A model generated the notes under the pieces. The model worked only from the letters and a program-made list of their open reading frames with translations, made no database searches and had not been told where the DNA came from. The position numbers were made by a program, and so were the translations under genes. Source: an uncultured Candidatus Saccharibacteria bacterium (GTDB lineage: Bacteria; Patescibacteriota; Minisyncoccia; Phycocordibacterales; DATDWN01). Taken from it: a stretch of DNA of 64,000 bases. Positions 3,315 to 55,571 of this stretch are shown in pieces. The stretch lies in NCBI GenBank assembly GCA_964576615.1, contig CAZNUU010000001.1:164226-228225 (forward strand), in the 5' to 3' direction. The first letter of the stretch is position 1, and each line of letters starts with the position of its first letter.

Positions 3315-3990
3315 GCGTTATTAAAATTACCGTCCTACCTTCTTGTTCGTTTAACTTCTGAAATGTGCCCAAGACAATTTCTCCTGTCTTTGTGTCCAAA
3401 TTGCCAGTTGGTTCATCCGCCAAAATAAGGGTTGGATTATTTACCAAAGCTCTAGCAATAGCTACTATCTGTATCTGCCCACCAGAGAGTTCATTTGACC
3501 TATGTAAAAAATGACTTTCTTCGAGTCCGGAAGAAAACAGAGCATCTCTCGCTTTACTTTCTCTCTCTTCACCCACCACTCCAGCATATATAAGCGGCAA
3601 CATAACATTGCGGAGAACAGTGGTTCGCGGCAAAAGATTAAAGGCTTGAAAAACAAATCCAATTTTATCCTTCCGAATTTTCGCAAGCTCATCGTCCTCC
3701 AAAGTGGATACGTCTTTTCCATCCAGAAAATAAGATCCGCTGGTAGGAGTATCTAGACAACCTAAAATATGCATGAGAGTTGATTTACCTGAACCAGAAG
3801 GCCCCATGATGGCCACGAACTCTCCATCTTTAATATTAAAAGTTACACCCTTTAGGGCTTCAAATGCTGCTTCACCTGTACCATAAATCTTTTTGACATC
3901 TTTTATTTCAATCATTTTATCTGGAGATAAATACAGCGTTGCCACCAGCTGCTCTAGTTCCCCCGCTTGTCGTTCTGTTTCCCCCTCCAA
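3202..3990 (-). CDS. ABC transporter ATP-binding protein (MacB/LolD-like); likely start about 3915 at MIEIKDV.
   Basis: Walker [13 protein letters not shown] signature LSGGQ, Walker [12 protein letters not shown]. Confidence 0.85.
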
Positions 3991-5707
3991 ACAATGACGG
4001 AGCCGTTTGAGTTGTGGTTTTTGTAGTTCCGGAAATTGTTCTTGTCACTATTTGCTCCCCAGGATCAAGTCCAGATGTGATTTCTGTATTAGTATCATCA
4101 GAGATACCAACTTCAACCGAAACTTGCCCTGGCGAAGTAGCTGATACGACACCTGTTGATCCGCCAGTATCAGTTAAAGGTGGAGTGAAAACTTGAACAA
4201 AGCTTTGACCATTTAGAGTTTTAACTGCACTCGACGGAACAGATAGAACATCAGCGTGAACATCAGTGATGATTGAAGCATTTGCCGTCATGCCTGACCT
4301 AATCCTCTCGTCCTGACTATCGAATCCGATTTTAATAGCATAAGAGACAACACCTTGGCTTACAGTTCCAACTGTATCTACTTCTGCCACCTTACCTGTA
4401 AGGGTCAGTCCATCAATAGCGTCGAATGTGAGCGTCGTCTTGTCGCCTTCTTTTATTTTTGCAGCATCAACTTCGTTTAAAGATAACTCTGCAATTTTTT
4501 GATTGGTAATGAGCGTAGCAATCGCGGCAGAATTTCCCGCTGAATCATATTTTTTTATAGAAACCTGGCCGATAACTCCATCAAATGGAGCTCGGATAAA
4601 GTAATTTGCCAAAGTATTATTCGCATCCTGTAGAGCATTCTCCGCCTTGGTAACATTGAGCTGCGCACTTCTAAGGTCTAGGGAGTCCGCACCTGCAGTT
4701 ATTTCATTTAAGGATTCTTGTTTCTCTGTTATGGCTTGCTTGTCTTGGGTAAGACTATTTGTGTCAGAGAGAAGACTTGATAAGTGGGATGCAAGTTTAC
4801 TGGAGTATGTATTTAGATTTGTAATCTGGGTATCAGCAAGAGTAATGTGGGTGAGACCATGAGCTTTGTAGGTATCGATATAAAGCTGAATAAAACCATT
4901 GGCACTTTTTACAGCTTTTGCCACAGTAGTACTAGTATCATAGGTTTCTTTCAGAACTTTCTCAATTGAATCTTTGTCTGTAGAGATACTGAGCGCTTGA
5001 TAGTCGTTAAACATCGCATCGTAAGAAGCTTGTGCCGCTAAATAATCACTATATGCTGCATCTCGAAACGACTTTGCTCTTATATCATAAGGATCGACTG
5101 CATTTTTGTAATAATCAATATTCCACTGGGAGCTAGCCGCATCACTACCGGTCAAGATATTTTTTAAATTCAAGATAATATCAGGCAAATCCACAAACGA
5201 ACTAGCTATGTCAGCCTGGCTATTACTATAGAGTGTCGCAAGATTGCTTTGGGCATTAGTTAAGGCATTTTGGGCCTGCGTCAGTGTAAGCTGGGAGGCC
5301 GGTTTTTGTAATTTCTCTAGTGCAATCTGGGCGCTCTCTAAATTTGCCTGTGCATCTCGTACTGACTTTTGCGCATCCCGTGCATCAAGCTCAGCAATTA
5401 GAGTACCGGCCGAAACTTTTTGTCCCGCAATTACTCCAACATATACCACATCACCTGAAACTTTTGACTTAATTGCTAATTCATTTGAAGATGAAACCTG
5501 ACCAGAAGCCGAAACGGAGGAAACGATTGTCGCCTTTTCAGCAGTACCTAAGACGTAGTGGGTTTGGGTGGAAGTGGTGTGCAGTTTTGAGTAAGTAGAG
5601 TAGCCGGCCGAAAGAACTAAAACTGCAATGACAAACGAGGAGACCTTGTGGATCTTCGCCCAAGCTACCCATTTTTTTAAATGCGGATTTGAAAGTATTT
5701 TATTCAT
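3917..5707 (-). CDS. HlyD-family membrane-fusion (periplasmic adaptor) protein, MacA/YknX-like.
   Basis: N-terminal TM, biotinyl-lipoyl-like hairpin (VSGDVVYVGV...AGTLIAELD), a long coiled-coil region and a C-terminal beta-domain with a Gly/Thr-rich tail. Confidence 0.75.
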   Translation of the reverse strand: MNKILSNPHLKKWVAWAKIHKVSSFVIAVLVLSAGYSTYSKLHTTSTQTHYVLGTAEKATIVSSVSASGQVSSSNELAIKSKVSGDVVYVGVIAGQKVSAGTLIAELDARDAQKSVRDAQANLESAQIALEKLQKPASQLTLTQAQNALTNAQSNLATLYSNSQADIASSFVDLPDIILNLKNILTGSDAASSQWNIDYYKNAVDPYDIRAKSFRDAAYSDYLAAQASYDAMFNDYQALSISTDKDSIEKVLKETYDTSTTVAKAVKSANGFIQLYIDTYKAHGLTHITLADTQITNLNTYSSKLASHLSSLLSDTNSLTQDKQAITEKQESLNEITAGADSLDLRSAQLNVTKAENALQDANNTLANYFIRAPFDGVIGQVSIKKYDSAGNSAAIATLITNQKIAELSLNEVDAAKIKEGDKTTLTFDAIDGLTLTGKVAEVDTVGTVSQGVVSYAIKIGFDSQDERIRSGMTANASIITDVHADVLSVPSSAVKTLNGQSFVQVFTPPLTDTGGSTGVVSATSPGQVSVEVGISDDTNTEITSGLDPGEQIVTRTISGTTKTTTQTAPSLFGGGNRTTSGGTRAAGGNAVFISR

Positions 5708-16035: not shown

Positions 16036-16320
16036 ATAAAAAGAAAAGCCCCGGCGCGGTTTTCTGCGCCGGGACCCGTTGTTCTTCTTGACTCCATGGT
16101 CTAAGCCCACTATTTTAATCAGGTTAGCGGGAACCTGCCGGGGCGACACGCCCTCGGTGAAATGTTCGCATTTTTCCAAGCCCGGAGCTCCACATTAGCC
16201 AGTAGATATCTCGCGGTGGATGAGCCAGCCTCTTCCTCTCTGCCGGTTTTATCCTAGTTATTCCGGCTCAGTGGGTGTGGCGTGCAATTGCCCAGCATCT
16301 GGGGATCACACAACCATGAC
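16036..16320 (-). ncRNA. candidate structured GC-rich RNA downstream of dus, ending in a strong intrinsic terminator.
   Basis: Minus-strand terminator CCCGGCGC-agaaaacc-GCGCCGGG plus CTTTTCTTTTTAT (16036-16073). A possible TTGACT-N16-TACCAT promoter lies near 16345. Contains AAGCCCGGAGCUCCACA, which resembles the RNase P P4/P5 string, but the motif order does not fit RNase P. Confidence 0.3.
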
Positions 16321-16365
16321 CAGTCCAGGAGCAATGGTAGCACAGTAGAAAATTAAGTCAATCTT

Positions 16366-21412: not shown

Positions 21413-21429
21413 AGATCGTGCTATCGTGT

Positions 21430-21731
21430 AAAAGGAGGGCAGATTCATGACCGTGATGGAAAGAACGCCGGCATTCGAAATCTCCGAGGCAGGGACGTTA
21501 ATTGCGACGGAACACTAAGTCGATGCGGGAACCCGAGTCCCCATCGGCAGCAAAAGACGCGCTCGCTACCACGGGCACAGTGTCTCGGTCATTCAGATCG
21601 AGCACGCGAACGAGCAGTTGTATCTCATCGACGACCCGGCGTTTCTGGAACACGTCCAGGAAGAAGCCGACGGCAGAATCGCATCGTAAGTACACCAAAG
21701 GGCTTGGCACCGTGCCGAGCCCTTTTGATTT
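21430..21731 (+). other. GC-rich ~300-bp insertion between dprA and topA, ending in an intrinsic terminator.
   Basis: Composition jumps to GC-rich. Terminator GGGCTTGGC-accgt-GCCGAGCCC plus TTTTGATTT at 21700-21731. Only short overlapping ORFs. Confidence 0.4.
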
Positions 21732-21774
21732 AACAAATTGGACAAAAGAATTTATTTGCTGTACTAATTAAGGA

Positions 21775-30228: not shown

Positions 30229-30299
30229 GGGGGGTTAGTTAAGTGGCATAACTACGGTCTCCAAAACCGTTGTCGGGAGTTCGATTCTTCCACCCCCCG
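30229..30299 (+). tRNA. tRNA-Trp (anticodon CCA).
   Basis: Acceptor GGGGGGT/ACCCCCC, D-arm GTTA-AGTGGCA-TAAC, anticodon stem ACGGT/ACCGT with loop CT-CCA-AA, and T-arm GGGAG-TTCGATT-CTTCC. Confidence 0.8.
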
Positions 30300-30398
30300 C
30301 TTTCATGCAAAGCTTGCTTTGCGTGGGAGAATCGAAGGCCGGAGCGCGACGGCGCGAGGCGGGGTCGAAAGTAAAGTCAGCAGACTTTGACTTGTGAC

Positions 30399-30418
30399 CG
30401 ATTCTTCCACCCCCCGCC
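30399..30418 (+). repeat. direct repeat of the tRNA-Trp 3' end (att-like).
   Basis: CGATTCTTCCACCCCCCGC at 30281-30300 recurs at 30399-30418, 98 bp downstream. Confidence 0.7.
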
Positions 30419-30451
30419 ACAACAAAAATTCGCCTTATGGGCGAATTTTTG

Positions 30452-30607
30452 TTATTTCTTTACTTCTTTAAATACAACTCTCTTTCGCAATTTCTTGCTG
30501 TATTTTTTAAGCTCGATTTTTCGCTCTACTTTTCTTTTATTCTTGGAAGTCCAATAAACTTCGCCTGTTTCCTTATTCTTTATCTGTATTAATCTATCCT
30601 GTGACAT
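30452..30607 (-). CDS. rpmG: 50S ribosomal protein L33.
   Basis: Unlisted 51-aa ORF: MSQDRLIQIKNKETGEVYWTSKNKRKVERKIELKKYSKKLRKRVVFKEVKK (L33 KNKRN...LELKKY pattern). Followed by hairpin AAAAATTCGCC-ttatg-GGCGAATTTTT at 30424-30450. Confidence 0.7.
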   Translation of the reverse strand: MSQDRLIQIKNKETGEVYWTSKNKRKVERKIELKKYSKKLRKRVVFKEVKK

Positions 30608-42569: not shown

Positions 42570-42715
42570 TTCTGCCTAATTCTAACTTTATTATTAGCCA
42601 TATTTTTCCCTTTTCCATACTTGACTTTTAGATATTTTGTGATACAATGGCCCTAGGGTTGGGTCGGAATTTTCGACCTTTAACATATATGCAAGTTACT
42701 TGAGAGGAGAGAGAT

Positions 42716-43936
42716 ATGAATGGTGTGAGACCACAGCGACTTCCGGAGAGCCACGCGAAAGCGGCGCTCATCCTGATGGTCGCACTCGTGGTGAATCTGG
42801 CGCTTTTCGGGACAGCGGTCCTCATGATCCTCTTCGGAAGAAGTACGGGATCGTGGTGGGATACGCTTTCACAGGTCAACTTGGAAACGGGAGGGGTCTT
42901 GATCCTTCTCATCCAAGTCTTTCACGCTTTAAACAGCGTGAAGAACGTGAACCTCAACCAGCAGGCAATTCTGCTGCTGTTTGGGGCATTCGTGAAGTAC
43001 GTCGAGCCGGGGCTCATTTATGTGCCCTGGGGTTTCTGCAGGTTGCTTCGAGCGACCACCGAGACGATCGAGAAAGACGTCCCGGCAGACTCACGGTTCA
43101 TAGACCACAGCGATGTTACCGATCAGACCACCGGTGGAACGGGAGTAATCCGAAAGGGCTACTTCCCTCCCATTCGAGTGACCTTTGCACCAGCAAAGGC
43201 TGCGGAAACAATCGAGGTGGGCGGTGAGAGGATCACGATTCCGGCGGACGATCCCTACGGCAAGAGAAATACTGCCGAAGTGGAGTTCTCCTACGGTTTC
43301 GAGATCTACGACTACGCGCGAGTGGTAAAGCGGTTCGGCACTGACGATCCAATCGGCAAGGCCAAGAACCAGCTGGACGACGTCGGCATCGGAGTCGTAA
43401 ACGACGAGTTGTCGCGAATGACAACCGCCAGAGCGATGATGAGTCAATCAGCGGTAGCGAACAAGATCCGGGATACTCAGTCTACCGAATCGGCAGACTG
43501 GGGAGTTCAGATCCTCTTCGTTCGCTTGAAGCCGTTTGGGTTCAGTCACAAACTGAACACTGCGGTCAGACAAGCAGCGGAGTCGTTTGCGCTGAAACAG
43601 GCAGTCGTCGTCGCCTCAGAAGGCGAACGTGAGAGACTCACCAACGTCGGCACGGGCACAGCAGAAGCAGAACGTCTGCTTTTGGAGGCACGGGCCAAGG
43701 GTGAAGCGGCGCTCGCCAAGGTCGCAGAGACACCTGGTGGCAAGTACGCCATGGCGGTCCGAGAAATCGGGCAGGCTGTGACGGCTGCCAGGGCAGTCGT
43801 CGTTCCGGGAGATAATCTCCTCGGAGCGGTGGCAAGTGCTGCGGCACTGGTCAAACAAGTCGGTGACGTAACGGAAACCGGCACAACCGGCTCAGCAAGC
43901 GGAAGCAACACGCGACCGCCTGCATCGAGACCATGA
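42716..43936 (+). CDS. SPFH/band-7 (stomatin/flotillin-like) membrane protein, strongly GC-rich.
   Basis: N-terminal TM, then AILLLFGAFVKYVEPGLIYVPWGFCRLL...(SPFH core) and a flotillin-like Ala/Glu coiled coil ERLLLEARAKGEAALAKVAE. Confidence 0.6.
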   Translation: MNGVRPQRLPESHAKAALILMVALVVNLALFGTAVLMILFGRSTGSWWDTLSQVNLETGGVLILLIQVFHALNSVKNVNLNQQAILLLFGAFVKYVEPGLIYVPWGFCRLLRATTETIEKDVPADSRFIDHSDVTDQTTGGTGVIRKGYFPPIRVTFAPAKAAETIEVGGERITIPADDPYGKRNTAEVEFSYGFEIYDYARVVKRFGTDDPIGKAKNQLDDVGIGVVNDELSRMTTARAMMSQSAVANKIRDTQSTESADWGVQILFVRLKPFGFSHKLNTAVRQAAESFALKQAVVVASEGERERLTNVGTGTAEAERLLLEARAKGEAALAKVAETPGGKYAMAVREIGQAVTAARAVVVPGDNLLGAVASAAALVKQVGDVTETGTTGSASGSNTRPPASRP

Positions 43937-43946
43937 GGTGTGAGAG

Positions 43947-44714
43947 ATGATCATCGCAGCGGTCGTCGTGGTGCTCGCAGCCATTTACATTTGGCTGCGA
44001 GCACAACAAGATCGAGACAGCAGAGGTATTGCGCGGGAGAGGCAGGAAGCCCCTCCCGACCAGGCAGATACGCCCCCGCAACCCGAAAGGGATGCGGATG
44101 GCGACTTCCCTTGGTACAAGTGGTGGAAGAGGCCCGGGTGGTGGAAAGAGAACATCTTTACCATTCCACTCGGAATCCTCCTCGGCCACATCATCGTCGC
44201 TGTCGCGACTCCAGATTTGTACTTCGAGTACATCTGGAGTTCGTGGCAGTTCTGGGCGCTGCAAGCGGTGATCGTTATCGCCGCCTGGATGATTCCGCAA
44301 GGAAATGTCCAGTACCATCCGAAGCTTGGCAAGATCATTGTCGTTACCGCTCTGCTAGCTGTTGTATATGTCTGGGGAAACAAAGCCCTGGATGATGCAC
44401 AGAAAAGCGCAGCGGCATCGAACAATGCTCAAGCCAGCTCATCGACCCAGAACACCCCGCCACCGAACAACGGAGGCAGGATCGTGATCACCGCCCCGCC
44501 GGTCTCGCAAGAGCCGACGGGTCGCATCGCACTACCACCGAGAGCCGTGCTCTCGGCGAACAAGCCGTTCACAATTTTTCAACTCGACGAGAGGGGAAAA
44601 GAGGCCTCCTACGACGGAGGTCCGGGCATGGAGGGGGTTCATCTCCCGCCATCTCCCTACGCCAGGTTCCGGTCAAAATCAGAAGAACCGGTCCTGATAA
44701 CCTTCATCCAGTAA
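43947..44714 (+). CDS. polytopic membrane protein, possible NfeD-like SPFH partner, GC-rich.
   Basis: 4 TM helices plus a C-terminal soluble beta-rich segment; followed by terminator CCCCCCCGCA-tacg-TGCGGGGGGG (44742-44765). Confidence 0.35.
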   Translation: MIIAAVVVVLAAIYIWLRAQQDRDSRGIARERQEAPPDQADTPPQPERDADGDFPWYKWWKRPGWWKENIFTIPLGILLGHIIVAVATPDLYFEYIWSSWQFWALQAVIVIAAWMIPQGNVQYHPKLGKIIVVTALLAVVYVWGNKALDDAQKSAAASNNAQASSSTQNTPPPNNGGRIVITAPPVSQEPTGRIALPPRAVLSANKPFTIFQLDERGKEASYDGGPGMEGVHLPPSPYARFRSKSEEPVLITFIQ

Positions 44715-44780
44715 CTGTACGCAGTTTGTACATTCATATAGCCCCCCCGCATACGTGCGGGGGGGATTCGTTTATACGAG

Positions 44781-49423: not shown

Positions 49424-51883
49424 CTATAAGCAAATAAGTGAAGCAATCCTATCTCCCTCTCGCAATTTCATCACCCTAACTCCTTGAGTTTGTCTGCCGT
49501 GAACAGGAATCTCTTTGGCATCCACTCGGATAACTTGTGATTTCTTGGAGATGGCCACAATTTCACCCTGACCTTCTGCAAAAACTTTGGCAGAAATCAA
49601 ATCCCCTGTCTTTGCATTAACCTTAGCTGTTTTTATGCCAGAACCACCTCTGTTTTGAACCTTATACTCATCAATATCAGTGCACTTACCATAACCATTT
49701 GCGGAAATAACCATGATGCTGGCGTTGTTCAATTCATTTGGCACAACTTCAGCGGAAATTACTTGATCACCTTTTTTAAGTTTTATTGCCCAAACTCCCA
49801 TAGCCGTCCTGCCCATTTCCCGAATATCAGATTCCTTAAAATGAATTGACTGACCTTTGGCTGTTACTACCATAACTGTGTCTTTCTTTCTTACAATGTT
49901 CGCCGAGATCAGAGCATCACCCTCTTCCAGTTTAATCGCAATGATTCCAGAAATTCTTACGTCTTCAAAACTTTTTGTAGCGACTTTTTTGGATACGCCA
50001 TTTTTTGTAACCATCATGACAGAACTTTCGGAACCCTTAACTTGTTTTGGCACAGGCAAAATTGAGGTAATCTTCTCTTCCCCTGAAAGTGGCAAGAAAT
50101 TCACGATGGATTTCCCTTTTGTTGCCCGACGACCCTCTGGAATGTCGTACATTTTGGTTTGATAAACTTTGCCTTTGTTTGTGAAAAAGAGTAGATCCGA
50201 GTGAGTGGAAGCAATAAGTAGATTGGTCACAAAGTCCTCCTCTTTTGTATCAAGGTCAACGACACCAACTCCTCCTCTTTTTTGTTTCCTAAACTCATCC
50301 GGATTTGTTCTCTTTATATAACCTCCCGCTGTAAGAACTAATGCATTTTCCTCATCGGGAATTAAATCCTCTTGGGATAGAATTGTTGCTCCACCTTTTA
50401 CAATTTTTGTCCTTCTTTCATCACCATATTTTTCTTTTATTTCCTCCGATTCTTTCTTTATGATACTTAAAATTTTCTTAGGTGAAGAAAGGATAGATTT
50501 CATTTCTTCGATAAATTCTTGAACAGTTTTTAGCTCATCCTCAATTTTCTTTCTCTCGAGTCCCGCCAAACGTGAAAGTTTCATCTCCAAAATAGCATTT
50601 GCTTGAATAGCTGAGAATTTAAACTGAGCCATGAGGTTTTTATGTGCCTCTGGAGTATCTTTGGAACTTTTTATGAGTTTAATAATCGCATCTATATGAT
50701 CAAGAGCTTTTTTGAGACCAAGTAAAATATGCTCTCTTTCTTCTGCCTTCCTTAAGTCATACTCTGACCTGCGTCTTATCACAGTCACTCTATGAGAGAC
50801 AAATTCCTCCAGGATGCCCTTAAGCGACATTGTCTCTGGTACTCCGTTAACTAAAGCCACCATGTTGTAATGAAATGTATCTTCCAGCTGAGTATGTTTA
50901 TAAAGATAATTTAAAACTGTCTGAGGATGCGCGGAAGATTTTAAGTCAATAACAATTCTAATGTCTTTGGCAGACTCGTCGCGCACATCTTTTATTTCTA
51001 TTTTCTTATCGCGATAAAGTTCGGCAATTTTAACCAGAAGATCTGCTTTGTTTACTCGAAATGGAATTGAGGAGATGACAATTTGGTAGTTTCCAGCTTT
51101 GTTTTCAACGATTTCAGCAACACCTCTGACAACCACAGGGCCCTTGCCGTTGGCATAAGCATGATTTATATCTTTTTGGTTAAAGGCCACAGCTCCAATT
51201 GGGAAATCTGGCCCTTTAATAAACTGGAGCAGATCTTCGGTTGCAGCATCCTTGTTGTCCGCCATGTGAATCACAGCATCCATCACTTCATTTAGGTTGT
51301 GAGGTGGAATATTAGTTGCCATTCCAACGGCAATGCCCAATGTCCCATTCAAAAGCAAGTTCGGCACAGCAGTCGGCAAAACTTTTGGCTCTTTTTTCGT
51401 GCCGTCGTAGTTTGGAATAAAATCAACAGTCTCTTTTTCAATATCACGTAAAAGTTCCGCGGCAAGTTTGGACATTTTTGCTTCGGTGTATCTGTAAGCG
51501 GCAGCATTATCACCATCAATTGATCCGAAGTTTCCTTGGCCAGTAATTAACGGATAGCGCATGGTAAAGTCCTGGGCCATTTTTACCATCGAGTCGTAAA
51601 CGGCCACATCACCATGAGGATGGTAATCTCCAATCACCGCTCCCACGACTGTTGCAGACTTTCTGGTCTTGGCTCCAGAAGTTAAACCTTCCTGATGCAT
51701 GGCATAAAGAATTCTGCGGTGCACTGGTTTTAGACCATCTCGCACATCTGGAAGCGCACGGTCAGTAATCACCGACATCGCATAGTCGATAAAAGAAGTC
51801 TTCATTTCGTCCGTAATTTCCTGCGAAATAACGTTCATTTGTATAGGTGATTTTATGCCCTCTTCTGTGTCCTTTTTAGCCAT
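49424..51883 (-). CDS. gyrA: DNA gyrase subunit A.
   Basis: [21 protein letters not shown], active-site [28 protein letters not shown], and C-terminal beta-pinwheel repeats. Confidence 0.95.
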
Positions 51884-52456: not shown

Positions 52457-53098
52457 TCATATTGCTTCAAGCACAACCACCTCCCCCTCCATCTCAGCAA
52501 TATCTTTTTTCTTTATGGTGAGCTTATCTAAAGCCTTGGTACCTTCTGCGCCTTCTTCTTTTAGAAATGTTTTGAGGGCGTTCTTGTCTCCAACTTCGCC
52601 ATAATGACTGGGGATAATAATCCCTGGCTCAAACTGAACCGCCAGCTTGTGCGCGGAGGAAGCATCCAGTACTCCATCACCACCAGTTGGCACAAATAGT
52701 ATATCAACACCATCAATAGCTTCTTTTGTCTCAGCTTTGAGCTCTTTTTCAGAGAGAGCTCCCAAAAAACACAGATTCATCCCCTCCAGCGAGACCGTAT
52801 ATATAGTATTGATATGCTCCTCTCCTCCATATTTGGACTTCGAGGGAATCCCTTTTATGAAAACATCCGAAACTTCATACTCACCCGGACCACTTATGAG
52901 AAATGATTCTTTGTCGCCTCGGGAAGTTGTTTCAGCCCCGTTGTGCTCAGGAGAATTTAAAGAGACCAGTGTAATGTCAGCACCAAATCTAGAATTTTTA
53001 AATTTAGAATCTTTCGAAACAGGATTGACCGCTATTGTGGTGTTGCCAAATGTAACCTTAAAATAATCCACTCCGTGATATGTGATAATCATGTCCAC
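52457..53098 (-). CDS. MBL-fold metallo-hydrolase.
   Basis: MIITYHGVDYFKVTFGNTTIAVNP... is a beta-lactamase-like fold start; conserved Asp/His positions. Confidence 0.6.
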   Translation of the reverse strand: MDMIITYHGVDYFKVTFGNTTIAVNPVSKDSKFKNSRFGADITLVSLNSPEHNGAETTSRGDKESFLISGPGEYEVSDVFIKGIPSKSKYGGEEHINTIYTVSLEGMNLCFLGALSEKELKAETKEAIDGVDILFVPTGGDGVLDASSAHKLAVQFEPGIIIPSHYGEVGDKNALKTFLKEEGAEGTKALDKLTIKKKDIAEMEGEVVVLEAI

Positions 53099-53164
53099 AG
53101 TTTATCAAGAAAAGTCTCGATGGCAAGGTTTGACAGAAAATTTCACTTAAGTATCATTGAACCC

Positions 53165-53483
53165 GGAAGGGGTAGGAAGAAAACAATAGTGATTCCCCAT
53201 GGGAAACCTGGGGCTTACAAAACAGCCCAAACCTGAGGCAAACCGGAGTAATCCGCGAGAACCGCAGGGGTTGTAGGATCCCGCAAAGTCCCGCTTCGTT
53301 TGGTAGGGACTAAGGAGTTACCAACCGGCTCGACCGGCTCCCGCGCGATACCTGAGTAATGATCTGTCACCGCATGCGGGGCAGAGGCATGAAACCACGT
53401 GACGAGGACAATTCGCACGTAAGGCTAAACTGACCCCCTTCCAGCTAATGCGGCGCGCAATGTGTGCGCCGTTTTCTTTTTTC
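53165..53483 (+). ncRNA. candidate GC-rich structured ncRNA with its own promoter and intrinsic terminator (family unknown).
   Basis: Promoter TTGACA-N16-TATCAT at 53130-53157. P1-like closure CCGGAAGGGG (53163) with CCCCTTCCAG (53434-43). Internal hairpins CCCCATGG-gaaa-CCTGGGG and GGGCT-uacaaaaca-GCCC. Terminator GGCGCGCA-atg-TGTGCGCC plus GTTTTCTTTTTTC (53452-53483). The string AAAGUCCCGCUUC...GUAGGGAC is weakly RNase-P-like. Confidence 0.35.
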
Positions 53484-53532
53484 TTTATTTAAAGTGTTTC
53501 AAATTCAATATTTGACATAATTATATAAATGT

Positions 53533-53775
53533 GTGAGTATTGACCATAGAGAGGAGATGCTGATGGCCAAGGAAGATCGTGGTTTTGCGTCGATGGATTC
53601 GAAGAAGCAGCGAGAAATCGCGAGCAAAGGTGGGAGAGCGGCACACGAGAAAGGTACCGCCCACGAGTGGGACGCGAACGAAGCTCGTGAAGCAGGTCGC
53701 AAAGGCGGCCACGAAACCCAGAAACGTCGGAAAAAGCAGGGTCTACCAGCGTGGATCAGGAAGAAGAAAAAATAA
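53533..53775 (+). CDS. KGG-repeat general stress protein (YciG-like), GC-rich.
   Basis: ASKGGRAAHEKG...AGRKGGHETQKRR are KGG motifs; terminator at 53788-53819. Confidence 0.5.
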   Translation: MSIDHREEMLMAKEDRGFASMDSKKQREIASKGGRAAHEKGTAHEWDANEAREAGRKGGHETQKRRKKQGLPAWIRKKKK

Positions 53776-53966
53776 GTTCGGTACCGAGGCGGCGTGCAAC
53801 GTGCGCGCCGCTTTTGTTTGCACAAATACCTATGACTTAGAACCAACGACACTAATGCTACAATATACTGTAGCATTAGAGATAATGACTTTTTATAAAT
53901 GAAGTCGAATATATTAAAACAAGAAAAGGTTCGACTCGGAGAGCGTCTAACCCCCCTTGTCGAACC

Positions 53967-54293
53967 TTACTTTTTCGAAAACTTCACGTGTCGGAACTCC
54001 TCACTCCGGAATCGGCCGATGTCCGATTCGGAGATCCCCTCTTGTTTCATTGCCTCTTCGAGGGCGGACCCCTTGGCAAGGCTTCGGCTGAAGAAGCCTG
54101 AGAGCTCGTCGAGGGAAACTTCCTCGCCGGCGAGGACCTTCTTCGCCGTTCTTGCCTGGGTCCGCCGATCTGCCTCTTGAGCCTTCTTCAGCCCCGGAAC
54201 GGCGATCGCTGCGATGATTCCGACAAACAGGATGACGATGAGAAACTCGATCAGGGTGAATCCTTTGATCGAACGCGCACGAGAAACTGTCAT
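53967..54293 (-). CDS. type IV pilin/pseudopilin-like protein (prepilin N-terminal methylation motif), GC-rich.
   Basis: MTVSRARSIKG|FTLIEFLIVILFVGIIAAIAVP is a class III signal peptide; GGAGG RBS before this Met; terminator hairpin AGGTTCGAC...GTCGAACCT downstream. Confidence 0.5.
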   Translation of the reverse strand: MTVSRARSIKGFTLIEFLIVILFVGIIAAIAVPGLKKAQEADRRTQARTAKKVLAGEEVSLDELSGFFSRSLAKGSALEEAMKQEGISESDIGRFRSEEFRHVKFSKK

Positions 54294-54404
54294 CTCAACC
54301 TCCTCCACCTTTATACCACCAGTATTTAATATGTCAAGCTATCCAAACTTCCTCATTTTTGTATACTTAAAGCCGTATTTTATTAGCCACTATATACGCT
54401 AAAT

Positions 54405-55571
54405 TTGGCTCTTCCCGAGGATACTGACCGAGACCAAGCCGTCTATAGAAAAATACTCATGGCAAAAGCCGTTTTAGACGAGGAAAAAGAGGAGGTAACT
54501 TCTGGGGCACAAAAGGAGGACCTCATGACTCACATTTTAAATACGAGCCTAACTCCCCCATCTGTAGATGATGTGGTGGAAGGCAAAGTAATTGGCGTAG
54601 AGAAAGCCAAGGTCTTTATCGATATCCCGCCTTTTGGAACCGGAATAATTTATGGCCGTGAATTTATAAATGCGCGTGACATAATAAAAAAAATAAATAT
54701 TGGTGATACAGTTGCGGGAAAAGTTATAGGTATTTCTAACAAAGATGGCTACATTGAAATCTCTCTTAAAGAAGCTCGCCAGGCGCTCATTTGGTCAGAG
54801 GCGGAGGACGCAATCCGAGATAAGAAAATATTTGAACTCGCTGTCCAAGAAGCAAACAAAGGTGGACTTATTTTAACTTGGCAAGGAATCACGGGATTTT
54901 TGCCAGCATCCCAGCTGAAAACAGAGCACTACCCACGCGTTGCGGATGGAGATAAGGACAGAATTTTGGAGGAATTGAAAAAACTAGTTGGTCAGAAAAT
55001 TTCAGTTGCAATAATCGGTGCATCGCCAAAGGAGGGCAAACTTATCTTCTCCGAAAAGAATCCGGAGCAGAAAAACAAAGACTATATTATTGGCAAATAC
55101 GCACTAGGCGACGAAGTCGTAGGCGAAGTTACGGGCATGGTTGATTTCGGTGTATTCGTAAAACTAGAAGAAGGACTTGAAGGTCTAGTTCACATATCTG
55201 AGATTGATTGGGCATTGGTTGAGAACCCAAAACTACTATTCCACATTGGTGAAAAAGTAAAAGTAAAAATTATAGAAATAAAAGACGGTAAGATTTCACT
55301 CTCAATTAAAGCTCTCAAGGAAAATCCTTGGAAAGACGCCGAAAAGAAATACAAAAAAGATGATGCGGTGGACGGGGTGATTATTAAATTTAACAAACAC
55401 GGCGCTCTTGCTTCGATTGAAGAAGGTATCGCTGGACTAGTTCACATCTCAGAATTTGGAAGTGATCAGATTATGCATGACAAACTGGAACTTGGTAAAA
55501 GTTACAAATTTAAAATAACTATGTTTGACGCCAAAGAGCAGAAGATGACATTAAGTTTTGTGGAAAAATAA
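54405..55571 (+). CDS. rpsA: 30S ribosomal protein S1 (four S1 domains).
   Basis: Repeated S1 OB folds (GKVIGVEKAKVFIDI, GDTVAGKVIGIS, DEVVGEVTGMVDFGVFVKL, DAVDGVIIKFNKHGALASI); terminator at 55581-55605. Confidence 0.7.
   Translation: MALPEDTDRDQAVYRKILMAKAVLDEEKEEVTSGAQKEDLMTHILNTSLTPPSVDDVVEGKVIGVEKAKVFIDIPPFGTGIIYGREFINARDIIKKINIGDTVAGKVIGISNKDGYIEISLKEARQALIWSEAEDAIRDKKIFELAVQEANKGGLILTWQGITGFLPASQLKTEHYPRVADGDKDRILEELKKLVGQKISVAIIGASPKEGKLIFSEKNPEQKNKDYIIGKYALGDEVVGEVTGMVDFGVFVKLEEGLEGLVHISEIDWALVENPKLLFHIGEKVKVKIIEIKDGKISLSIKALKENPWKDAEKKYKKDDAVDGVIIKFNKHGALASIEEGIAGLVHISEFGSDQIMHDKLELGKSYKFKITMFDAKEQKMTLSFVEK

What the first reader, a model, noticed from the sequence alone, without database searches (positions are those of the whole stretch)
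53130..53483. Promoter- and terminator-bounded GC-rich candidate ncRNA of about 320 nt with a P1-like closing helix
A TTGACA-N16-TATCAT promoter at 53130-53157 precedes a GC-rich stretch that stands out from the AT-rich flanks. The stretch starts with CCGGAAGGGG and ends with CCCCTTCCAG (a terminal closing helix). It contains multiple stable hairpins and is followed at once by a canonical intrinsic terminator GGCGCGCA-atg-TGTGCGCC plus a U-run. Only short overlapping ORFs occur. The size and P1 closure suggest RNase P RNA, but the P4 5' strand is only approximately matched (AAAGUCCCGCUUC) and no complementary 3' strand was found. tmRNA (no T-arm) and TPP riboswitch (no CUGAGA) also fail. It may be a divergent RNase P RNA or a new RNA.
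Basis: seen in the sequence. Interest (0 to 1): 0.55.

Follow-up and report, generated by a model that had tools for sequence, protein, structure and literature searches.

The report
Orphan promoter-to-terminator noncoding RNA cassette
A small stand-alone unit in an ultra-small (Patescibacteria) bacterium has its own promoter and terminator, lacks a credible protein-coding frame, and most likely makes a folded RNA of about 285-315 bases; this RNA is not RNase P or any other catalogued RNA, no relative of it was found anywhere, so its function is unknown and the find is only moderately interesting.

Summary
The sequence features are real. A near-consensus sigma-70 promoter lies at 53130-53157. 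About 280 nt with no plus-strand ORF of 30 aa or more follows. The first and last bases pair in an 8-bp helix (53165-53172 with 53435-53442), and a canonical intrinsic terminator lies at 53450-53482. Promoters and terminators of this strength are several-fold to roughly 30-fold commoner in the window than in shuffles, and the other examples flank genes. The terminal helix is unlikely by chance (p about 0.002).

The RNase P reading is not supported. No Rfam family matches, even at E<=10 on the bare 291 nt. The AAAGUCCC motif sits in a local hairpin, and no RNase P architecture can be threaded onto the sequence. tmRNA, TPP, 6S, SRP and group I intron also fail.

The host is a Paceibacteria-type bacterium. 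Its closest available relative (about 80% DNA identity) has the same flanking genes with 12 nt in place of this roughly 381-bp cassette. That site, between rpsA and an MBL-fold hydrolase gene, carries different small cassettes in each relative.

Searches of 17 related loci, phage and plasmid records, viral contigs, JGI metagenomes and billions of predicted proteins found no homolog. No covariation test is therefore possible. GC richness and folding energy do not distinguish the region within this genome.

Best reading: a lineage-specific accessory small RNA gene of unknown function.

The parts
53113..53493 (+). The whole cassette (promoter, RNA and terminator). It is present in this genome and replaced by about 12 nt in the closest relative, L001.
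   Evidence: MAFFT alignment of the MBL-KGG intergenic regions. The blastn homology blocks stop at 53092 and resume at 53499. Boundaries are good to about +/-5 nt. No target-site duplication or terminal inverted repeat was seen.
53130..53157 (+). Sigma-70-type promoter TTGACA-N16-TATCAT. The transcription start is inferred at about 53164.
   Evidence: 11/12 match. There are six such sites in the window against 1.9 in shuffles, and the other five lie upstream of ORFs. The start site is inferred from spacing, not measured.
53165..53172 (+). 5' strand of the terminal closing helix (GGAAGGGG).
   Evidence: Pairs with 53435-53442 at mean pair probability 0.91. Chance probability is about 0.002.
53173..53188 (+). 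Purine-rich stretch UAGGAAGAAAACAAUA, mostly predicted unpaired (53173-53175 pair weakly in the MFE, P 0.35) and the longest such segment.
   Evidence: MFE, centroid and MEA structures. Prediction only.
53189..53218 (+). Hairpin 1: GUGA..CCCCA.GG[GAAA]CC UGGGG.UUAC.
   Evidence: Pair probabilities 0.89-0.98.
53222..53274 (+). Hairpin 2: a long interrupted stem capped by CGGA[GUAA]UCCG.
   Evidence: Pair probabilities 0.5-0.8.
53275..53353 (+). Branched domain 3.
   Evidence: AGUCCC/GGGACU pair probability 0.99. The outer stems are at 0.77-0.79.
53359..53390 (+). Hairpin 4: UCUGUC.CCG[CAUG]CGG GGCAGA.
   Evidence: Pair probabilities 0.98-0.99.
53395..53424 (+). Hairpin 5: ACGUG.CGAG[GACAA]UUCG CACGU.
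   Evidence: Pair probabilities 0.97-0.98.
53435..53442 (+). 3' strand of the terminal closing helix (CCCCUUCC).
53450..53482 (+). Intrinsic terminator: a 10-bp stem with 7 G-C pairs, a 3-nt loop, then UUUCUUUUUU.
   Evidence: Pair probability 0.95.
53215..53418 (-). 67-aa GTG-start ORF on the opposite strand, judged not to be a gene.
   Evidence: No Pfam hit. Against 1.84 billion representative proteins there are only four weak hits to long repetitive proteins. There is no Shine-Dalgarno sequence at a usable distance (AGGGGG lies 16-17 nt upstream), and the gene caller did not call it on the identical Logan contig.

Best explanation
This is a lineage-specific, self-contained small-RNA gene. 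RNA polymerase starts at a strong sigma-70 promoter, at about 53164. It transcribes roughly 285 nt with no credible reading frame and stops at a canonical intrinsic terminator, at about 53480.

The 5' and 3' ends of the body pair in an 8-bp G+C-rich helix that encloses about five hairpin domains. This is the layout of stable, exonuclease-resistant bacterial RNAs.

The unit sits as a roughly 381-bp cassette in a hypervariable site between rpsA and an MBL-fold hydrolase gene, and the closest relative lacks it. It is therefore accessory, not housekeeping.

Shown: the promoter, the terminator, the absence of an ORF, the end pairing, the presence/absence difference with the relative, and the absence of any Rfam match or homolog.

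Inferred: that the RNA is transcribed and stable, and that it acts in trans, as a protein-binding or base-pairing regulator, rather than in cis.
For: - Promoter at 11/12, in a genome where such sites are enriched about threefold over shuffles and otherwise precede ORFs.
- Terminator of a class enriched about 30-fold over shuffles.
- No plus-strand ORF of 30 aa or more.
- Terminal helix with p about 0.002 and pair probability 0.91.
- The downstream KGG gene keeps its own upstream (promoter) block, which is conserved in the relative that lacks the cassette, so the unit is independent of KGG.
- No similarity to any predicted protein in any of the six frames.
- No Rfam family matches.
Against: - There is no homolog, so there is no covariation or conservation evidence that the fold, or even the sequence, is under selection.
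- The folding z-score (-2.8) and the GC content are ordinary for GC-rich segments of this genome.
- GNRA-capped hairpins are not enriched (p = 0.08).
- Every other identifiable cassette at this hotspot encodes a small protein, which raises the prior that this one is a decayed gene.
- No expression data are available.
Confidence: 0.5

Rival explanations
1. It is a decayed accessory cassette: a former small GC-rich protein gene whose promoter and terminator survive while the reading frame has been destroyed. The transcript, if made, would have no function.
For: - The rpsA-MBL site holds small protein cassettes, each with its own promoter and terminator, in this genome and its relatives. Examples are KGG, a pilin-like protein and small predicted proteins (41-75 aa) of unknown family.
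- The window has many GC-rich small genes, and at least one looks frameshifted (21413-21774).
- SD-like AGGAAG lies 9 nt before a GTG at 53189, but that frame stops after 15 codons.
- Orphan status fits drift.
Against: - The plus strand has 5-7 stops in every frame across the region, and none of the six frames resembles any protein at E<=1.
- A decayed ORF does not predict the 8-bp pairing of the transcript ends (p about 0.002).
Confidence: 0.2
2. It is a highly divergent RNase P RNA, as the first reader leaned towards. The terminal helix would be P1 and AAAGUCCC the 5' strand of P4.
For: - The size, paired ends and GAAAGUCC-like motif fit.
- Candidate-phyla-radiation bacteria are reported to carry diverged RNase P RNAs that fall below Rfam thresholds (PMC8172020).
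- No RNase P RNA was detected elsewhere in the 64-kb window.
Against: - No RNase P family is listed even at E<=10 on 291 nt, where 13-bit junk is shown.
- The motif is locked in a local hairpin (P = 0.99).
- The motif lies about 125 nt from the 5' end, and its only distal complement leaves about 80 nt for the whole specificity domain, P15 and P18.
- There is no CR-V-like sequence before the 3' strand of P1 (read directly from the sequence).
- The cassette is absent at this locus from a relative with about 80% DNA identity, and 12 degenerate patterns found nothing in JGI metagenomes that do contain relatives.
- The window is only a fraction of the genome, so the real rnpB is probably elsewhere.
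Confidence: 0.03
3. It encodes a small protein: either the 67-aa minus-strand ORF (53215-53418) or a plus-strand micropeptide of 15-25 aa.
For: - The 67-aa frame is open.
- A hairpin followed by a partly T-rich run (53208-53191, minus strand) follows its stop codon.
- GC by codon position (0.63/0.51/0.56) resembles that of the real KGG gene.
- AGGAAG-N9-GTG at 53174-53191 could start a 15-codon ORF.
Against: - The 67-aa ORF has a GTG start and no usable ribosome-binding site. There is no minus-strand promoter, and it was not called on the identical Logan contig.
- It has no homolog among 1.84 billion representative proteins apart from compositional hits, and no Pfam hit.
- The strong promoter and terminator are on the other strand.
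- The plus-strand 24-25-aa ORFs have no Shine-Dalgarno sequence.
Confidence: 0.08
4. It is a cis-acting leader or attenuator for the downstream KGG stress-protein gene. The terminator would be conditional and read-through would add to KGG expression.
For: It is on the same strand as KGG and immediately upstream of it (53563-53775). A long structured leader ending in a terminator is the riboswitch/attenuator layout.
Against: - KGG has its own upstream block, conserved in L001, which lacks the cassette entirely.
- No competing anti-terminator pairing was evident in the predicted folds (terminator pair probability 0.95); none was specifically searched for.
- No riboswitch family matches.
- The element is not found next to KGG in any relative examined.
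Confidence: 0.05

Closest known systems
Independent bacterial small RNA genes (sigma-70 promoter, no ORF, intrinsic terminator), including strain-specific sRNAs carried on accessory DNA
   Same: It has a stand-alone promoter, a noncoding body and a Rho-independent terminator. It lies in a variable intergenic hotspot, and its presence differs between close relatives.
   Different: At about 285 nt with paired termini and five predicted hairpin domains, it is longer and more compact than typical base-pairing sRNAs of 50-200 nt. No target complementarity was found in the window. No family assignment is possible.
Bacterial RNase P RNA, type A (Rfam RF00010), including the diverged forms described in candidate-phyla-radiation bacteria (PMC8172020)
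   Same: The length class is similar, a terminal helix could be called P1, there is one GAAAGUCC-like heptamer, and the sequence is G+C-rich in an A+T-rich genome.
   Different: There is no covariance-model match, no P4 pseudoknot, no CR-V sequence and no room for the specificity domain. It is not conserved in relatives.
6S RNA and other stable RNAs with paired 5'/3' ends (SRP RNA, Y RNA)
   Same: It has an independent promoter and terminator, and its ends are closed by a helix.
   Different: The predicted fold is a multi-branch junction, not a rod with a central bubble. There is no Rfam 6S or SRP hit. Those RNAs are housekeeping and conserved, whereas this one is an indel.
GC-rich intergenic structured-RNA candidates found by the 'GC-IGR' approach in AT-rich genomes (e.g. 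PMC8632094, PMC11109978; listed)
   Same: It is a long, unusually G+C-rich intergenic region in an A+T-rich genome, which is exactly the signal those pipelines use.
   Different: Those studies need several representatives to name a motif, and here there is only one. In this genome GC-rich islands are often small protein genes, so the signal is weaker.

Membership tests
RNase P RNA (bacterial type A/B; Rfam RF00010/RF00011) | A match to the family covariance model. | tested here: not met
   There is no RNase P hit at gathering score, at E<=10 on 601 nt, or at E<=10 on the bare 291 nt with the laxest filters, where hits of 12.7-13.8 bits are already listed.
RNase P RNA (bacterial type A/B; Rfam RF00010/RF00011) | A P4 pseudoknot: a GAAAGUCC-type 5' strand (CR-I) pairing with an ACAGAA-NNN-GGCUUA-type 3' strand (CR-V) that lies immediately before the 3' strand of P1. 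| tested here: not met
   AAAGUCCC (53285-53292) pairs with GGGACU (53306-53311) at probability 0.99. The 20 nt before the 3' strand of P1 read GUAAGGCUAAACUGA, with no complement to AGUCCCGC. The only complement, GCGGGGC at 53376-53382, lies more than 50 nt upstream of the P1 3' strand (sequence).
RNase P RNA (bacterial type A/B; Rfam RF00010/RF00011) | A specificity domain (P7-P12) and P15/P18 lying between the two P4 strands. | tested here: not met
   Only about 80 nt lie between the candidate P4 strands, and they form two simple local hairpins.
RNase P RNA (bacterial type A/B; Rfam RF00010/RF00011) | An essential housekeeping gene present in related genomes. | tested here: inconclusive
   It is absent at the syntenic site of L001 and of 15 other related loci. 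Twelve degenerate 24-nt patterns found nothing in JGI metagenomes that hold relatives. Whole related genomes could not be searched, and the rest of this genome is not in hand.
tmRNA | A tRNA-like domain (acceptor stem, T-arm, CCA end) plus a tag reading frame. | tested here: not met
   ARAGORN finds no tmRNA in the window and Rfam gives no hit. There is no T-loop sequence before the 3' strand.
TPP and other riboswitches / T-box leaders | A match to an aptamer model, plus a regulated downstream gene that lacks its own promoter. | tested here: not met
   No cis-regulatory family scores above noise. KGG keeps its own conserved upstream block.
Group I intron (common in Patescibacteria, PMC13011429) | A P3-P9 core with P7 formed by a 5' GACUA-type strand and a 3' UAGUC-type strand, embedded in a host gene. 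| tested here: not met
   There is no Intron_gpI hit. AGUCCC precedes GGGACU, which is the reverse of the group I order, and the two form a plain hairpin. No tRNA, rRNA or protein exons flank the element.
6S RNA | A rod-like fold with a large central bubble, and a match to a family model. | tested here: not met
   No 6S-type Rfam hit. The MFE, centroid and MEA structures are all five-branch junctions. This rests on structure prediction only.
Stand-alone bacterial sRNA gene (generic kind) | Own promoter, no reading frame and an intrinsic terminator, all on one strand. | tested here: met
Stand-alone bacterial sRNA gene (generic kind) | A detectable, discrete transcript. | not testable with these tools

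The most novel reading that the evidence does not exclude
The cassette could be the first sighted member of a new class of compact, end-closed structured RNAs that move as promoter-RNA-terminator modules between accessory hotspots of Paceibacteria genomes. A second ORF-poor, promoter- and terminator-bounded, end-pairable GC-rich unit at 16046-16345 (minus strand) in the same window hints that such units may recur. The two units show no significant sequence similarity.
Probability: 0.15. Interest if true: 0.55.

Novelty: new member of a known kind. Interest (0 to 1): 0.3.

Why it matters
Almost nothing is known about noncoding RNAs of candidate-phyla-radiation bacteria beyond rRNA, tRNA, introns and diverged RNase P RNAs. 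An expressed 285-nt structured accessory RNA would be one of the first examples. It would also show that their small, streamlined genomes still exchange RNA-only cassettes.

In practical terms, the result removes a false RNase P call. It also shows that, in this genome, GC-rich intergenic islands cannot be read as RNA genes without further evidence, because many are small protein genes.

Tried and rejected
- **Rfam.** I searched at gathering score on the window, at E<=10 on 601 nt, on 291 nt and on the whole window, on the second island and on 15 related loci. Only tRNAs and noise appeared.
- **Synteny.** I examined 13 genome loci encoding the neighbouring MBL hydrolase plus 4 contigs reached through its closest homologs. 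nhmmer, blastn and tblastn found no copy of the RNA apart from the identical Logan contig.
- **Phage and plasmid records.** A blastn 'distant' search gave nothing in phages and one 23-nt chance match in a Streptomyces plasmid.
- **Translation trick.** I used two reading phases of the RNA as pseudo-proteins, which gave 12 degenerate 24-nt patterns, against viral contigs and JGI metagenomes. Nothing passed confirmation.
- **Predicted proteins.** The 67-aa antisense ORF against 1.84 billion representative proteins gave only compositional hits. The open stretches of the other five frames against 5.8 billion proteins gave nothing.
- **Exact look-up of the KGG protein** returned only the same contig.
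- **Replication origin idea.** It was prompted by the local GC-skew minimum and the divergent gene orientation. I rejected it because there is no DnaA-box cluster and no clean skew switch.
- **Paralogy with the 16-kb island.** An eye-catching alignment proved not significant.
- **tRNA with an intron, group I intron, hammerhead, SRP domain IV, retron or DRT-type template RNA.** Each was rejected from the sequence or the context: no T-arm, wrong P7 order, broken hammerhead core, no 5' strand for SRP helix 8, and no reverse transcriptase nearby.
- **Intrinsic signals.** GNRA-hairpin enrichment and folding z-score gave no signal beyond background.
- **Mobile-element context.** The 2-kb, 68% GC island at 42.7-44.8 kb encodes an SPFH/Band 7 protein, not a transposase.

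Full report
**What is in the sequence**

- TTGACA-N16-TATCAT lies at 53130-53157 and scores 11 of 12.
- The body starts about 7 nt later with GGAAGGGG (53165-53172) and ends with CCCCUUCC (53435-53442).
- GCGGCGCGCA-AUG-UGUGCGCCGU (53450-53472) and a U-run follow at once.
- GC content is 0.52-0.60 inside and 0.35-0.39 in the immediate flanks.
- On the plus strand, the transcript holds no ORF of 30 aa or more. It has only ORFs of 24 and 25 aa, neither with a Shine-Dalgarno sequence.
- On the minus strand there is a 67-aa GTG-start ORF (53215-53418).

**Is it more than chance?**

I scanned the whole window for promoters at 11/12 or better. There are six against 1.9 in shuffles, and the other five lie upstream of ORFs.

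Terminators with at least 8 bp, at least 5 G-C pairs and at least 6 U in 8 nt number about ten, against about 0.3 in shuffles.

With the ends defined independently by promoter and terminator, I asked how often the first and last 20 nt hold an 8-bp Watson-Crick complement. The answer is 0.18% of 20,000 shuffles. The helix has pair probability 0.91 in the ensemble.

So a real, self-contained transcription unit whose product closes its own ends is well supported.

- The window has 34 islands at GC 0.55 or more, and several are small protein genes with strong ribosome-binding sites.
- The folding z-score of -2.8 falls inside the spread of twelve other GC-rich segments, which run from +0.4 to -4.3.
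- GNRA-capped hairpins are not enriched (p = 0.08).

**Known RNA families**

Rfam 15 finds only tRNAs in the window at gathering score. At E<=10 on 601 nt, on the bare 291 nt and on the whole window, it reports only noise such as snoRNA, miRNA and DUF3085, at 12.7-25 bits. ARAGORN finds eight tRNAs and no tmRNA.

A published survey shows that candidate-phyla-radiation genomes carry diverged RNase P RNAs that need lowered thresholds (PMC8172020). A missing gathering-score hit is therefore not enough, and I checked the architecture by hand.

- AAAGUCCC (53285-53292) pairs with GGGACU 14 nt downstream at probability 0.99.
- The only distal complement, GCGGGGC (53376-53382), would leave about 80 nt for P5 through P18. 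It also lies more than 50 nt before the 3' strand of P1 rather than abutting it.
- The sequence that does abut P1 (GUAAGGCUAAACUGA) has no partner resembling CR-I.

RNase P is therefore not supported. The group I intron idea was worth checking because these introns are frequent in Patescibacteria (PMC13011429). It fails because AGUCCC precedes GGGACU, which is the wrong order for P7, and because there are no exons.

**Context and relatives**

Homologs of the neighbouring MBL-fold hydrolase place the genome in Patescibacteria, among the Paceibacteria/Parcubacteria. The flanks are as follows.

| Gene | Coordinates | Strand |
|---|---|---|
| gyrA | 49424-51883 | - |
| MBL-fold hydrolase | 52457-53092 | - |
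| KGG-repeat stress protein | 53563-53775 | + |
| pilin-like protein | 53967-54308 | - |
| rpsA | 54405-55571 | + |

The closest genome available is L001. Its DNA identity is 76-82% across gyrA, MBL, KGG and rpsA, and it has the same gene order.

Homology stops at 53092 and resumes at 53499. After allowing for a roughly 105-nt inverted-repeat insert that is private to L001, about 12 nt in L001 replace about 381 bp here. The 381 bp are exactly the promoter, the RNA and the terminator. The sequence upstream of KGG is conserved in both genomes, so KGG does not depend on the cassette.

Other relatives carry different small cassettes at the same rpsA-MBL site. These include a 41-aa predicted protein with a hydrophobic stretch, a 62-75-aa small ORF, or nothing at all. 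The unit is thus accessory cargo in a hotspot.

**Search for homologs**

- nhmmer, blastn and six-frame tblastn against 17 related loci and the rest of the window found only the identical Logan contig.
- Phage and plasmid collections gave nothing meaningful.
- Only exact-pattern scans of the large collections were possible. I therefore submitted two reading phases of the RNA as pseudo-proteins, so that each scan used six 24-nt patterns with wobble positions. Neither viral contigs nor JGI metagenomes yielded a confirmed relative, although JGI data do hold relatives at 78% MBL identity.
- As a further handle, I looked for any ORF ever called over a homologous region. The 67-aa frame against 1.84 billion representative proteins gave four compositional hits to long repeat proteins. 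The open stretches of the other five frames against 5.8 billion proteins gave nothing at E<=1.

These methods would miss relatives below roughly 75-80% identity, and I could not scan the genome collection with DNA. The statement is therefore 'no close relative in what was searchable', not 'unique'.

A conserved housekeeping RNA in genus-level relatives should nevertheless have been hit. This is an inference from pattern-match probabilities, not a measurement.

**Interpretation**

The best-supported reading is a lineage-specific small-RNA gene (confidence about 0.5).

- Shown: the transcription signals, the absence of a frame, the end closure and the accessory nature.
- Inferred: the expression, the stability and a trans-acting role.

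The main rival is a decayed small-protein cassette (about 0.2). It fits the neighbourhood and the orphan status, but it does not predict the terminal helix or the lack of protein similarity in every frame.

The remaining rivals are a small protein (about 0.08), a KGG leader (about 0.05) and RNase P (about 0.03).

Without homologs, no covariation test can separate a selected fold from a fortuitous one. For that reason the interest score stays modest.

**Other things seen**

A second unit with the same layout lies at 16046-16345 on the minus strand. It has a promoter-like site, about 270 nt of ORF-poor GC-rich sequence, ends that could pair, and a very strong terminator. An alignment with the 53-kb unit looked suggestive but is not significant. 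Further items are listed separately.

Noticed in passing
window 16046-16345 (minus strand): This is a second ORF-poor, GC-rich (about 0.6) stretch of roughly 270-290 nt. It has a promoter-like TTGACT-N16-TACCAT, ends that could pair (5' CUCCUGG with 3' CCAUGGAG) and a very strong terminator (12 bp, 9 G-C pairs, T-run). There is no Rfam match, and its similarity to the 53-kb unit is not significant.
   Followed up: partly
window 30229-30453: tRNA-Trp (30229-30299) is followed, after a GC-rich spacer of about 100 nt, by a second copy of its 3' end (CGATTCTTCCACCCCCCG plus CCA, about 30402-30422) and then a terminator. It looks like an att-type duplication left by an integrating element, or a short insertion in the 3' part of the tRNA.
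   Followed up: no
window 21413-21774: This GC-rich intergenic island has a strong ribosome-binding site and an ATG, a stop after 23 codons, and then a long open frame in another phase. It may be a frameshifted small accessory gene.
   Followed up: no
L001 about 3870-3995; L008 about 3521-3650: L001 has a roughly 105-nt insert with terminal inverted repeats (TCCCGTTA...TAACGGGA) just upstream of the MBL start codon. A similar TCCCGTTAGAG...CTCTAACGGGA pair occurs in L008. This looks like a miniature inverted-repeat element shared among these Paceibacteria.
   Followed up: no
L015 1-462: The region upstream of the MBL gene in this relative holds three TGTGGAT(A/T)(T/A) motifs resembling DnaA boxes, together with repeated GCCGAGGCGAAGCCTTGGCAG inverted repeats. 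The window has no comparable cluster.
   Followed up: partly
window 53093-54400 and the matching parts of L001, L002, L007, L016, L017: The space between rpsA and the MBL hydrolase gene is a hotspot. Each relative carries a different set of small cassettes with their own promoter and terminator. These include KGG, a pilin-like protein, small predicted proteins (41-75 aa), the RNA unit, or nothing.
   Followed up: partly
window 42690-44766: This 2-kb island at up to 68% GC lies in a 42% GC genome. It encodes an SPFH/Band 7 protein and a 255-aa protein with no Pfam match, and was probably acquired horizontally.
   Followed up: partly
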